In this document: one piece after another, positions 43,701 through 46,700 of the stretch | Layout of the letters: the number at the start of each line of letters is the position of its first letter | Numbering within the stretch: position 1 is the first letter of the stretch | Assembly: GCF_053078305.1 (NCBI RefSeq) | Contig: NZ_CP166879.1 | Length of the DNA stretch: 64,000 nt | Reading direction: 5' to 3' (one strand) | Program-made: the position numbers

Positions 43701-46700
43701 GAACTAGCTATAGCAAAAAATGGGATTACGCTTATTAGAATATATAAATATATACATCTATGAGATAATTCCGGATTGTATTTTTTAATGTAATTAACAT
43801 ATATATTAAAATAAAAAATATATGATAAAAATGTTGAAAAAAAAGGTAAAAATTCTTTTTTTATTCCTAAAGATTTAAATAAATAAATAACAGTATTTAT
43901 TGTAATATATCTATTGTCACTATTTTCAAAAACTTTGTTTAGTGATGTTTGACTAACATATAAATATGTTTCATAATGCCTAGTCAAATCCCAATTTTCA
44001 TAAGGTATTAACAAAAATGCTAGTACCCCTAGCATAAATGAACATACATAAACACTCCATCTGGCCCCATTAATCATTTCAATCATTGCTAATAATAAAG
44101 CAAGAGGCAAATAAATTATTGAAATAAATGAAGCACTAATTTTTATGTTTCTATTAATCATCTTTTTATAACTTTTCTCATAAATAGGTAAATATCTGCT
44201 AACGCCGCATATAATTTCCCGTTTCTTTTCTTTCGGATTTGTCTCGCTTCCTCCAATGCTAATTTTACATTTTTAGCGCTAAGGCCGGCATTTCTCATCG
44301 AAGAGATATTTTTATCAATATAATGAAAGATATAACCTTGTTTCTTCAATTTTAGCAAAAGATCATAATCAGAAGCAATTTTATAGCTAGTATTAAATAA
44401 ATTTTCTCTGTGGATATCTTTTTTAATAAATGTGGCCGGATGGCTTAAATTCATATCTATATGTAGTTTCCAGTCTTTAGGCCTCCGGACCTGAATAACA
44501 TCCAAGCTATCAGCCTCTACCAAAGACATATTTCCATAAATAACATCATATTTATTTTCTTTCATTACTTTTATTACTTGACATAATACATCTTTATTAT
44601 AAAAATCATCAGCGTTTATAAATCCTATATAATTCCCAGATGCTTTTAACACACCTTTATTCATTGCATCATATATACCATTATCATTTTCAGAAATGAT
44701 ATATGAAATTTCATTTTTGTAAGAATTAACAATATTTAGAGTATTATCCGTTGATGCACCATCAATTATAATATATTCAATGTCATCATTGCAGTTTTGT
44801 GATAAGACACTTTTTATAGTATCTTCGATATACATTTCGCCATTGTACACAACGGTAACTATTGTTAAAGTTGGTTTATTCATTGTTAGCCCTACAATAA
44901 ATTTAAATTATTTAATTTATTTGTTTTCTTAATCAAAAAGTAAAATCTCGCCATTATTATAAACTCAGTTGAAATAACTCCTATTGCTGTACCAACTCCT
45001 GAGTATTCATTAGTCAAATAAGTAATTATCAGTAGGCCTATTAATCCACTGGTAGTAATAATTTTTGTAAACTCTTTTTTCATACCAATAGGGATCATTA
45101 CTAAAATTGCAATATAATTACTTACCGTAACTATTGCTGGAGTAAAAGCTAAAACCTTGAGTATTTCTAAAGATTCATGATACGTTTTTCCATACATGAT
45201 TAAAATTATATCGTCTGCAAAAAAGTAAAGAAATATGGAAAGTACGAACATCAGTGAAAATTGCCATCGAAACACTTTCCTGGCTAATAATAGTCCATCG
45301 TCATGATTATCCTTCATTATATAAGTTACTCTAGGAAAAACAGCTTGGGTTATAGGACCAATAACGCCTTGTAGTGCAAGCCTAATTTTATCTGCAGCGA
45401 TAAAATATCCCACTGCAGTTGTTCCTGATAATGCACCTAATATTATTGTTGAACTAGTAGTATAAAGGCTTATTGCTGCAGAGGAAATGAAGTAATGCCA
45501 TCCATCATAAATTAACTCTTTCATTTTGGATAAGGATGGTGGTACCCATATTATTTTTTTAAGAGAAAATAAAAAATATGTAGATATTATACCTGCAATA
45601 ACTGTTATTGATGATTGTATTGTTATCGCTATACCAAGATCCTTTTCACTTTTAACCAATAAAAATGTTAAACATAGTGTAAGTAAGCGTGCGGAAAACA
45701 TACTTATCGCTATTCCTAACATTTTTTCCAGCCCTTGAAAAAACCATACTGGATATATTAAATTTCCTACGACAGATATGTATGCAAGAATGATAAATTT
45801 AATTTGGTAATCAATGATATTCAATTCCGAAATTAAATAAATAATTAACAAACCAAGAGATGCAGCAATTATTTTGATAAACGTTACATTCCAAAAAACT
45901 TTACTTATGGAATCAGTATTTTCCCTTGATATTGATATTATTTTGGGCGCTGAGTAGTTAAATCCGTAATCAATAAATAATATAAAATATTGGACCACAG
46001 CAAAACTATACCCATATATCCCGTATCCTGTAGGTTCAAGGATCCTGACAAGATAAGGCAGTGTGACCAATGGAAATATATAATTGCCACCTTGAACGCT
46101 TAATAAATAGATGATGTTTTTTAACATAACGAGCCTACGTACTTAACAAGTCTTATTTTGCACGATAGTTTACAATTTGTTAAGTAATATGGGATAAACA
46201 TTTAATTCACGCTACCGCCCCTGGCTCAACAGCTACCAGCGTACTGCATGCACGTCCTAATTGTAACTAGCATTAACCGTTATGGTTAGTTCGAAAAGCT
46301 TAACTCTGAACGTTTTACCAAATCGCTTCAGAGATGGAGAAAATCTCAGCCTCCCACAATAAATGCCTATTGAAAAGTTATTGTTACTCATATTTAGAAC
46401 GGTATAAAGAAAGAATGAGGCAATGAGTACAATTAGCCCCACCAATCTTCACTGCCGTTATAATTTTCTTATCAACCGTTACATCCGGTCAGATTTTCAA
46501 TATTCGCTTAACAGCTTCTCAATACCTTTACGGAACTTCGCCCCTTCTTTGAGGTTGCGTAGTCCATACTTCACGAACGCTTGCATATAGCCCATTTTTT
46601 TACCGCAGTCGTAGCTGTCACCAGTCATCAGCATTGCATCAACAGATTGTTTTTTCGCCAGCTCAGCGATGGCATCTGTCAGCTGAATACGTCCCCATGC

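What the first reader, a model, noticed from the sequence alone, without database searches (positions are those of the whole stretch)
46128..46496. JUMPstart/ops element heads the O-antigen operon on the minus strand
The 39-bp sequence at 46208..46246 is the reverse complement of the canonical JUMPstart with the 12-nt ops core, placing RfaH-dependent antitermination about 80 bp upstream of wzx. It marks the O-antigen operon start and gives its transcription direction.
Basis: partly seen in the sequence, partly recalled or inferred. Interest (0 to 1): 0.3.

Follow-up and report, generated by a model that had tools for sequence, protein, structure and literature searches.

The report
RfaH loading site heading O-antigen operon
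This is the well-known 39-base JUMPstart signal, with its 12-base ops site, in the untranslated leader of an E. coli O11 O-antigen gene cluster; the anti-termination factor RfaH boards RNA polymerase there so that the long, AT-rich operon is transcribed to its end.

Summary
CAGTACGCTGGTAGCTGTTGAGCCAGGGGCGGTAGCGTG lies at 46246..46208 on the minus strand. Its last 12 nt are the only ops consensus in the 64 kb. Rfam's JUMPstart model hits exactly these coordinates (57 bits, gathering score 35). It lies in the 369-nt galF-wzx spacer, 80 nt before the wzx ATG. It heads twelve co-oriented genes (wzx to manB) that are 99.5% identical to a RefSeq locus annotated as O11-family. Three refinements apply. 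(1) The JUMPstart lies inside the transcribed leader. The likely promoter is a conserved extended -10 (TGGTAAAAC, 46320..46312), giving a leader of about 178 nt with ops near +87..+98; this is inferred, not mapped. (2) RfaH-modified polymerase probably reads on past manB into gnd-ugd-wzzB, as in CFT073. (3) The 5' half of the JUMPstart forms a 5-bp hairpin in a fixed register next to ops, supported by covariation across species; its role is unsettled. This O11 leader is a diverged allele (about 53% identical to the common E. coli leader), yet its JUMPstart is 35/39 identical. Already known; low interest.

The parts
46497..47393 (-). galF, the conserved gene upstream of the O-antigen cluster. 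Its stop codon is shifted by one codon here (GAA TAT TGA instead of GAA TAA TGA).
   Evidence: TIGR01105 689 bits and NF007516 666 bits; RefSeq annotation of the near-identical locus; alignments A1 and A2.
46128..46496 (-). The 369-nt galF-wzx spacer, which holds the promoter region and the untranslated leader. RefSeq annotates no gene here. A 62-aa TTG ORF (46257..46445) is probably spurious; it was translated but not searched against any library.
   Evidence: Rfam finds nothing else in the spacer at E<=1. No intrinsic terminator was predicted in the spacer.
46436..46496 (-). galF-proximal block shared with about 3000 E. coli genomes (57/61 identical to CFT073). Downstream of it the spacer is specific to the O11-type cluster, so the recombination junction lies near 46436-46440.
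46312..46340 (-). Putative sigma-70 promoter: extended -10 TGGTAAAAC (46320..46312) and a weak -35 TCTCCA (46340..46335, 17-nt spacer). Predicted +1 is near A46305. Inferred, not mapped.
   Evidence: This is the only block besides the JUMPstart that is conserved between otherwise diverged leaders (TTGGTAA[A/G]AC in 6 of 8 serogroup examples; TGATAAGAG in ES1). Its distance to ops is constant (92-94 nt). It agrees roughly with the CFT073 RNA-seq unit start and the sigma-70 ChIP peak upstream of ops. The simple consensus scan did not pick it up.
46208..46246 (-). 39-nt JUMPstart element.
   Evidence: Rfam RF01707, 57 bits against a gathering score of 35, full length. It is 35/39 identical to CFT073 and K-12, while the surrounding leader is 102/194 identical (Fisher one-sided p = 5e-6).
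46221..46239 (-). JUMPstart hairpin: CUGGU (46239..46235), 9-nt loop, GCCAG (46225..46221). One unpaired G (46220) separates it from ops.
   Evidence: Rfam consensus structure. Covariation on 27 sequences: 97.8% of cells paired, score 0.364 against 0.175 +/- 0.024 in shuffles, slid controls at most 0.103. In 52 of 121 ops sites from other genomes a perfect 5-bp hairpin occupies this register, against 6-23 in slid registers and 11.9 +/- 3.4 with shuffled upstream sequence. It is the minimum-energy fold of the 26- and 50-nt nascent segments but is weak (-4.6 kcal/mol, z 0.27).
46208..46219 (-). ops (operon polarity suppressor), GGCGGTAGCGTG, on the non-template strand. The pause positions are C9 (46211) and U11 (46209).
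   Evidence: Unique match in the window. Identical to the wild-type ops of PMC5995543 and to the CFT073 O-antigen leader ops.
44892..46127 (-). wzx (O11-family O-unit flippase), first gene of the operon, with a weak Shine-Dalgarno sequence.
   Evidence: PF01943 4.7e-57. 412/412 translated positions (411 aa plus stop) identical to WP_000916633.1. SD duplex -2.6 kcal/mol, against -8.2 for galF.
33563..46127 (-). Operon body: wzx, GT2, wzy, GT, galE-like, GT4, gmd, fcl, gmm, manC, GT2, manB. All genes are on the minus strand, with gaps of at most about 80 nt. GC is 26-39% except manB (54.6%). There is no second ops.
   Evidence: 12868 of 12934 nt are identical to the RefSeq O11-family locus.

Best explanation
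This is the JUMPstart/ops element of an E. coli O11-type O-antigen operon, and it works as an RfaH loading site. Transcription starts in the galF-wzx spacer, most likely at an extended -10 promoter (TGGTAAAAC, 46320..46312; +1 near 46305), and runs leftward on the minus strand. About 87-98 nt into the untranslated leader, RNA polymerase transcribes ops (46219..46208) and pauses at C9/U11. The exposed non-template strand forms the small ops DNA hairpin, which recruits RfaH. RfaH then stays on the polymerase, excludes NusG, suppresses pausing and Rho-dependent termination, and counteracts H-NS-imposed blocks. Its refolded C-terminal domain can also recruit ribosomes to genes with weak ribosome-binding sites. 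The result is full-length transcription of the 12.6-kb, 26-39% GC wzx-to-manB operon, probably continuing into gnd-ugd-wzzB. Shown here: the sequence, position, orientation, uniqueness, conservation and gene context. Inferred by homology and precedent: RfaH binding and dependence. Inferred from conservation only: the promoter and transcript start.
For: Exact JUMPstart and ops at 46246..46208 (-). Rfam RF01707 at 57 bits against a gathering score of 35. Location in a non-coding spacer between galF and wzx, on the sense (non-template) strand of twelve co-oriented polysaccharide genes. The 12-mer is identical to the wild-type ops in which bases 3-8 recruit RfaH and T11/G12 cause the pause (PMC5995543). 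In CFT073 the O-antigen unit has the same 12-mer in its leader; RfaH ChIP signal covers wzx through wzzB, a sigma-70 peak lies upstream of ops, and the RNAP travelling ratio falls to about one third in delta-rfaH (PMC9765446). The JUMPstart is 35/39 conserved inside a leader that is otherwise only 53% identical to the common E. coli allele (p = 5e-6), which indicates selection rather than recent shared ancestry. The operon body is AT-rich, the typical H-NS and Rho target. There is one leader ops and no second ops in the operon, as reported for RfaH units. wzx and several downstream genes have a weak or absent Shine-Dalgarno sequence. The literature uses the JUMPstart downstream of galF as the standard 5' landmark of E. 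coli O-antigen clusters, O11 included (PMC4732683).
Against: Nothing contradicts this reading; the gaps are in what could be tested. No expression data exist for this locus, and rfaH is not in the window. The promoter is inferred: the simple sigma-70 scan did not flag it, its -35 is poor (3 of 6), and the CFT073 RNA-seq unit boundary lies about 21-22 nt downstream of the start predicted from the homologous -10. No terminator separates galF from the leader, so read-through from galF could also feed ops. A promoter-like site (TTAACA-17-CAAAAT, 46183..46155) lies downstream of ops, although such sites are no more frequent here than in shuffled sequence.
Confidence: 0.92

Rival explanations
1. The JUMPstart also works at the RNA level. 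Its 5' half forms a nascent-RNA hairpin (CUGGU, 9-nt loop, GCCAG) whose last base sits 10-12 nt behind the RNA 3' end when polymerase is at ops C9/U11. That is the geometry of an exit-channel pause hairpin. It could prolong the ops pause until RfaH arrives, and RfaH is known to inhibit hairpin-stabilised pauses. This complements the DNA-level ops mechanism rather than replacing it.
For: Rfam models the family as this hairpin with ops in the 3' tail. A register-specific excess of perfect hairpins is seen next to ops across distant genomes: 52 of 121, against 6-23 in slid registers and 11.9 +/- 3.4 with shuffled upstream sequence. Covariation includes compensatory U-A to A-U changes and strand-specific G.U pairs. 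Unrelated stem sequences (CAGGA/UCCUG, CAAGA/UCUUG, CACUG/CGGUG) occupy the same register in non-enteric gammaproteobacteria. The hairpin is the minimum-energy fold of the RNA that has emerged when polymerase reaches ops. RfaH is listed as inhibiting hairpin-stabilised pausing (PMC6391919).
Against: The ops pause is described as a class II, backtrack-stabilised, hairpin-independent pause, and it works in vitro on templates carrying ops alone. The hairpin is thermodynamically weak (-4.6 kcal/mol, z 0.27) and is lost in the minimum-energy fold of the longer leader. The sequences for the pair count were chosen by eye. The comparison with the his pause hairpin's dimensions rests on my memory. A different RNA-level role (stability, ribosome loading) or a protein-binding role is equally open.
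Confidence: 0.25
2. The element is present but largely bypassed here. The main wzx promoter lies downstream of ops (for example the TTAACA-17-CAAAAT site at 46183..46155), so expression of this cluster is mostly RfaH-independent.
For: A 9-of-12 promoter-like site lies between ops and wzx. For K-12, a genomic-SELEX study proposed hexamers downstream of ops inside the galF-rfbB spacer (PMC3946193).
Against: Promoter-like sites are at chance frequency in this AT-rich stretch (3 found, 2.8 expected). The SELEX hexamers were assigned computationally and are not a mapped start. The ops-to-ATG segment is not conserved between serogroups (28/89), whereas the upstream -10 block and the JUMPstart are. 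In CFT073 the unit start and the sigma-70 peak are upstream of ops, and RfaH is loaded.
Confidence: 0.04
3. The 39-mer is a passive relic, kept only because it is a homologous-recombination junction for swapping O-antigen cassettes, with no regulatory role at this locus.
For: In CFT073 against K-12 the spacer is nearly identical up to ops and diverges immediately after it, so ops does coincide with a cassette boundary in many serogroups.
Against: In this O11 locus the junction is elsewhere (about 46436-46440), and the leader on both sides of the JUMPstart is diverged (47-61% identity), yet the JUMPstart is 35/39 identical (p = 5e-6). That pattern indicates selection on the element itself. Direct functional evidence exists for the homologous sites.
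Confidence: 0.02
4. The leader mainly yields a short stable RNA carrying the JUMPstart (as reported for the waaQ leader-derived RirA, recalled from memory) that acts in trans.
For: Papers returned by the literature searches discuss sRNAs that act on LPS and envelope-stress regulation and mention the JUMPstart (PMC5736990, PMC6358824, listed). I did not read them, and the RirA precedent itself rests on my memory.
Against: No terminator or processing signal follows ops here. The leader folds no better than shuffled sequence (z 0.20). Rfam finds no sRNA family in the spacer.
Confidence: 0.03

Closest known systems
JUMPstart/ops leader of the E. coli CFT073 (O6) O-antigen 'wzx' transcription unit
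   Same: Same position (galF-wzx spacer), the same 12-nt ops GGCGGTAGCGTG, the same TTGGTAArAC block 92-94 nt upstream of ops, wzx as the first gene, and an AT-rich operon. RfaH loading there is shown by ChIP-seq.
   Different: The leader sequence outside the JUMPstart is only about 53% identical. The ops-to-ATG distance is 80 nt here against 59 nt there. The serogroup genes differ. No experimental data exist for the O11 locus.
JUMPstart upstream of rfbB (rmlB) in E. coli K-12 and O7 (Hobbs & Reeves 1994; Marolda & Valvano 1998, the latter recalled from memory and not retrievable)
   Same: A 39-nt element that is 35/39 identical. The same hairpin and ops. The same upstream -10-like block. The leader length implied by that block (about 174-175 nt in rmlB-first clusters) fits the 173-nt O7 leader I recall.
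   Different: There are four substitutions, all outside ops: two in the 5' CAGTGCT region (G to A, T to G) and two in the loop (AA to TG). The first gene is wzx, not rmlB.
Rfam RF01707 JUMPstart RNA
   Same: Full-length match at 57 bits against a gathering score of 35, with all five stem pairs standard.
   Different: One extra loop nucleotide relative to the model consensus.
ops sites of other RfaH operons (waaQ/rfaQ, hlyCABD, kps, wza, tra)
   Same: The 12-nt consensus, located in an untranslated leader on the non-template strand, one per operon.
   Different: Those operons differ in leader length (60 to 800 nt or more in CFT073) and in positions 10-12 of ops (hly GGCGGTAGCATG, kps GGCGGTAGCATA).

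Membership tests
JUMPstart element (Hobbs & Reeves 1994; Rfam RF01707) | Conserved sequence of about 39 nt that scores above the family threshold | tested here: met
   57.0 bits against a gathering score of 35, model positions 1-38 of 38. 35/39 identical to CFT073 and K-12.
JUMPstart element (Hobbs & Reeves 1994; Rfam RF01707) | Lies just upstream of, and in the same orientation as, a polysaccharide gene cluster, in non-coding sequence | tested here: met
   It lies in the galF-wzx spacer, 80 nt before wzx, on the strand of all 12 O-antigen genes.
JUMPstart element (Hobbs & Reeves 1994; Rfam RF01707) | 5-bp hairpin 5' of ops (Rfam consensus structure) | tested here: met
   All 5 pairs are standard in the window. 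Covariation across 27 sequences and a register-specific excess in 121 ops sites support the structure.
ops (RfaH recruitment and pause site) | 12-nt consensus GGCGGTAGnnTG, with bases 3-8 intact (RfaH contacts) and T11-G12 (pause) | tested here: met
   GGCGGTAGCGTG at 46219..46208, identical to the wild-type ops of PMC5995543.
ops (RfaH recruitment and pause site) | On the non-template strand of a transcribed, untranslated leader (ops copies in coding regions do not load RfaH) | tested here: inconclusive
   The strand and the non-coding location are met. That it is transcribed from an upstream promoter is inferred from a conserved extended -10 element and from CFT073 data, and is not mapped here.
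ops (RfaH recruitment and pause site) | RfaH binds the paused complex, and downstream expression depends on rfaH | not testable with these tools
   This needs ChIP, an rfaH mutant, or in vitro transcription. It has been shown for the homologous CFT073 locus.
E. coli O11 (= OX19) O-antigen gene cluster | Serogroup-specific wzx and wzy | tested here: met
   The wzx protein is 100% and the wzy protein 409/412 identical to the RefSeq 'O11 family' flippase and polymerase. The cluster is 99.5% identical over 12.9 kb. O11/OX19 clusters are reported as identical (PMC4732683). Serology is not testable here.

The most novel reading that the evidence does not exclude
The 5' two-thirds of the JUMPstart, whose function has never been pinned down, may be a nascent-RNA exit-channel hairpin. 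It is kept in a fixed register (one unpaired G before ops, 10-12 nt behind the C9/U11 pause positions) across enteric and non-enteric gammaproteobacteria, even where the stem sequence is unrelated. It would cooperate with the DNA-level ops signal, for example by holding the paused polymerase until RfaH arrives, after which RfaH's anti-hairpin-pause activity releases it. This would be a property of the whole family, not of this locus.
Probability: 0.2. Interest if true: 0.45.

Novelty: already known. Interest (0 to 1): 0.1.

Why it matters
For annotating this window the element is useful but not new. It fixes the 5' end and the direction of the O11 O-antigen operon, and it predicts that O-antigen expression in such strains depends on RfaH, a recognised virulence regulator. 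Two modest extras came out of the check. First, the O11 cluster carries its own diverged promoter and leader, in which only the -10 block and the JUMPstart are held constant; this is a clean natural experiment showing which leader parts are under selection. Second, an independent sample of 121 ops sites shows that a hairpin in a fixed register next to ops is conserved well beyond the enteric JUMPstart sequence, which keeps open the question of what the non-ops part of the element does.

Tried and rejected
(1) I looked for a mapped transcription start. Marolda & Valvano 1998 could not be opened by PubMed id or by a guessed PMC id. Literature searches gave only a SELEX-based computational promoter for K-12 and an RNA-seq unit boundary for CFT073. 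The promoter therefore remains an inference.
(2) The simple sigma-70 scan of the spacer did not flag the conserved block. It flagged three sites at chance frequency (3 found, 2.8 expected), which I do not rely on.
(3) Global leader structure: the fold of +1 to wzx has z = 0.20, the ops-to-ATG segment z = -0.57, and the isolated JUMPstart z = -1.22 with a non-Rfam fold. I rejected the idea of a stably structured leader.
(4) The 62-aa TTG ORF at 46257..46445 is not annotated in RefSeq, lies in sequence restricted to one serogroup, and overlaps the promoter block. I treated it as spurious and did not search it.
(5) I searched for further ops or ops-like sites that could reload RfaH within the operon. 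None lies on the sense strand between 33563 and 46127.
(6) I looked for an IS or repeat origin of the O11-specific 194 nt. It matches only the 65 O11-type genomes even in distant blastn mode, and it contains only short repeats of 9-11 nt.
(7) Many of the 121 genome-wide matches to GGGGCGGTAGCGTG are probably chance hits in GC-rich genomes. I kept them in the alignment-free test, which makes that test conservative.
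Full report
OBSERVATION. On the minus strand the window reads CAGTACGCTGGTAGCTGTTGAGCCAGGGGCGGTAGCGTG at 46246..46208. The last twelve bases, GGCGGTAGCGTG (46219..46208), are the only match to the ops consensus GGCGGTAGNNTG on either strand of the 64 kb, where 0.05 matches are expected by chance. Rfam's curated JUMPstart model (RF01707) hits exactly 46208..46246 (-), end to end, at 57.0 bits against a gathering score of 35. The finding's span, 46128..46496, is exactly the non-coding spacer between the galF stop codon and the wzx start codon. Precisely 80 nt separate ops from the ATG.

CONTEXT. The upstream gene (46497..47393, -) is galF (TIGR01105, 689 bits). The downstream gene (44892..46127, -) is a Wzx-type flippase (PF01943, 4.7e-57). 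Its protein is 100% identical to a RefSeq 'O11 family O-antigen flippase'. Eleven more genes follow on the same strand with gaps of at most about 80 nt: GT2, wzy (EpsG family), GT, a galE-like epimerase, GT4, gmd, fcl, gmm, manC, GT2 and manB (33563..34933). After them come gnd, ugd and wzzB. Over 12.9 kb the cluster is 99.5% identical to RefSeq locus NZ_LR536430.1, whose wzx and wzy are annotated as O11 family. Published work reports O11 and OX19 clusters as identical and uses the JUMPstart downstream of galF as the standard 5' landmark of E. coli O-antigen clusters (PMC4732683). The operon body is 26-39% GC against roughly 45-55% in the flanks. There is no second ops on its sense strand.

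WHAT THE SPACER LOOKS LIKE IN OTHER STRAINS. The full 369-nt spacer occurs in 65 of 5426 complete E. coli genomes. Its central 194 nt occur only in those 65, even in sensitive blastn mode. About 3000 genomes share only the first ~58 nt after galF, and others match only the JUMPstart. I aligned the spacer with those of seven other strains: K-12, O80, CFT073 (O6) and four strains whose serogroup is not named in their records. CFT073 and K-12 are about 100% identical from galF to ops and diverge immediately after ops. The O11 spacer behaves differently. It is 57/61 identical next to galF, then 45/96, 23/38 and 34/60 identical across the middle, the promoter block and the early leader. It is 35/39 identical in the JUMPstart and unrelated (28/89) between ops and the ATG. 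The JUMPstart is thus far better conserved than the leader around it (35/39 against 102/194, one-sided Fisher p = 5e-6). In this lineage the cassette junction lies near 46436-46440, not at ops, so the conservation of the 39-mer cannot be explained by its being a recombination joint. It is under selection in its own right.

PROMOTER (INFERRED). Apart from the JUMPstart, the one block that survives between the diverged leaders is TTGGTAA(A/G)AC, at window 46321..46312. It reads as an extended -10 element (TGnTAAAAC). It sits 92 nt before ops here and 94 nt before ops in K-12, CFT073, O80 and strain 7/2. ES1 has TGATAAGAG at the aligned position. The -35 is poor (TCTCCA, 17-nt spacer). The predicted +1 is near A46305, which gives a leader of about 178 nt with ops at about +87..+98. 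Three pieces of indirect support exist. First, in rmlB-first clusters the hexamer ends 180-181 nt before the start codon. That fits, within 1-2 nt, the 173-nt leader I recall from Marolda & Valvano 1998 for O7; I could not open that paper, so this point rests on memory. Second, in CFT073 the RNA-seq-derived unit start lies 67 nt upstream of ops. That is about 21-22 nt downstream of the start predicted from the homologous -10, and such coverage-based boundaries are approximate. A sigma-70 ChIP peak also lies upstream of ops. Third, sigma-70 holoenzyme binds the K-12 galF-rfbB spacer in genomic SELEX. The simple consensus scan missed this block and found only chance-level sites. No terminator follows galF, so read-through may contribute. 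The statement that the JUMPstart 'marks the operon start' is therefore right in the loose sense: it lies in the leader, roughly 60-100 nt after the probable transcript start.

MECHANISM. The 12-mer is the very sequence used as wild-type ops in the structural and functional dissection of RfaH recruitment. In that work bases 3-8 form the small non-template DNA hairpin that RfaH reads, T11/G12 create the pause, and RNAP pauses at C9 and U11 (PMC5995543; review PMC6391919). In CFT073, RfaH ChIP signal begins at the single leader ops of the O-antigen unit and extends across wzx, wzy, cpsB, cpsG, gnd, ugd and wzzB. Only ops copies in leaders load RfaH, not copies in coding regions. The RNAP travelling ratio across the unit falls to about one third in delta-rfaH. 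The unit is coated by H-NS-StpA (PMC9765446). By homology, the element in the window is where RfaH boards RNA polymerase. RfaH then suppresses pausing, Rho termination and H-NS-imposed blocks over the AT-rich 12.6 kb, probably with read-through into gnd-ugd-wzzB. The weak Shine-Dalgarno of wzx (-2.6 kcal/mol against -8.2 for galF), and its absence before two glycosyltransferase genes, fit the proposed ribosome-recruiting role of RfaH. This last point is an inference.

THE NON-OPS PART OF THE JUMPSTART. Rfam models the family as a 5-bp hairpin with ops in the 3' tail. In the window the arms are CUGGU (46239..46235) and GCCAG (46225..46221), with a 9-nt loop and one unpaired G before ops. Without any alignment, 52 of the 121 have a perfect 5-bp hairpin whose 3' arm ends exactly at this register. 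Slid registers give 6-23, and shuffled upstream sequence gives 11.9 +/- 3.4 with a maximum of 25. The stems include unrelated sequences (CAGGA/UCCUG, CAAGA/UCUUG, CACUG/CGGUG) in non-enteric gammaproteobacteria. On 27 enteric-type sequences, 97.8% of cells pair. The covariation score is 0.364 against 0.175 +/- 0.024 in shuffles (0 of 500 reach it), and slid controls reach at most 0.103. The changes include U-A to A-U swaps and strand-specific G.U pairs. One caveat is that I picked those 27 sequences by eye. The hairpin is weak (-4.6 kcal/mol, z 0.27). It is the minimum-energy fold only of the RNA that has emerged when polymerase reaches ops, not of the whole leader. Its last base lies 10 and 12 nt behind the C9 and U11 pause positions, which resembles the geometry of exit-channel pause hairpins as I recall it. 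This leaves room for an RNA-level contribution to pausing or loading. However, the ops pause is described as backtrack-stabilised and hairpin-independent, so I rate that reading at about 0.2-0.25. It concerns the family, not this locus.

COMPARISON AND VERDICT. The element meets every sequence-level criterion of the JUMPstart family and of ops: the score threshold, the position, the orientation, the hairpin and the intact 12-mer. The functional criteria (transcription through it from an upstream promoter, RfaH binding and dependence) could not be tested here and are supported by the homologous CFT073 locus. The rivals all have low support: a promoter downstream of ops that bypasses it, a passive recombination relic, and a leader-derived sRNA. 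The finding is correct and already known. It is useful for annotation but would not surprise a specialist.

Noticed in passing
window 33601-34933 vs 55934-57265: The O-antigen manB is 97.1% identical in DNA to the colanic-acid cpsG 22 kb away in the same window. It has 54.6% GC, while the other eleven O-antigen genes have 26-39%. This looks like gene conversion or recombination between the two phosphomannomutase genes. manC shows only a 158-nt stretch at 71% identity.
   Followed up: partly
window 46247-46440: The O11-type cluster carries its own diverged promoter and leader (47-61% identical to the leader shared by K-12, CFT073 and O80) and is found in only 65 of 5426 complete E. coli genomes. 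The junction with common E. coli sequence lies about 60 nt after galF rather than at ops, which suggests the cassette was imported together with its leader from a diverged lineage. I did not look for the donor.
   Followed up: partly
window 46497-46505: The galF stop differs from other strains. The window reads GAA TAT TGA where K-12, CFT073 and others read GAA TAA TGA, so galF is one codon (Tyr) longer here.
   Followed up: partly
window 47636-48631: An epimerase gene lies between wcaM and galF; RefSeq names the homologue N-acetyl-alpha-D-glucosaminyl-diphospho-undecaprenol 4-epimerase. It is probably needed for the O unit, yet it sits upstream of galF and outside the JUMPstart-led operon, so not all O-antigen functions would be under ops control.
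   Followed up: no
window 46140-46149 and 46177-46186: A perfect 10-nt inverted repeat (UACUUAACAA ... UUGUUAAGUA, 27 nt apart) lies in the leader between ops and wzx and ends 12 nt before the ATG, next to the weak AGG Shine-Dalgarno. The predicted fold is not significantly stable (z -0.57).
   Followed up: partly
window 46272-46282 and 46471-46481: An 11-nt direct repeat TAACGGTT(A/G)AT occurs once in the conserved galF-proximal block and once in the leader about 25 nt before the JUMPstart. It could be chance.
   Followed up: no
window 22151-22274, 19779-19853, 52811-52881, 57270-57319, 3409/5230/7638: Other Rfam hits at gathering score: His operon leader (+), STnc240 (-), naRNA4 (a REP-like element inside the colanic acid cluster), the algC RNA motif just upstream of cpsG (-), and three tRNA genes with identical scores.
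   Followed up: no
L016, L046, L049, L117, L120-L122 (positions): In several non-enteric genomes (those whose record titles were listed are Pseudomonas, Stutzerimonas and Marinobacterium) ops is preceded by a different conserved hairpin (CAGGA...UCCUG, with CAAGA...UCUUG variants) in the same register. It is usually followed by CCUG or UCUG. This looks like a distinct JUMPstart-like family.
   Followed up: partly
L119: Two ops copies lie 30 nt apart inside a tandem repeat (…GGGCGGTAGCGTGAATTGTAATTGCGAGG repeated).
   Followed up: no
window 39744-40774, 34958-35739, 44162-44184: Several internal genes of the operon (GT4, the second GT2, wzy) have essentially no Shine-Dalgarno complementarity (duplex 0.4, 0.6 and -2.7 kcal/mol), whereas the flanking housekeeping genes galF and gnd have strong ones.
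   Followed up: no
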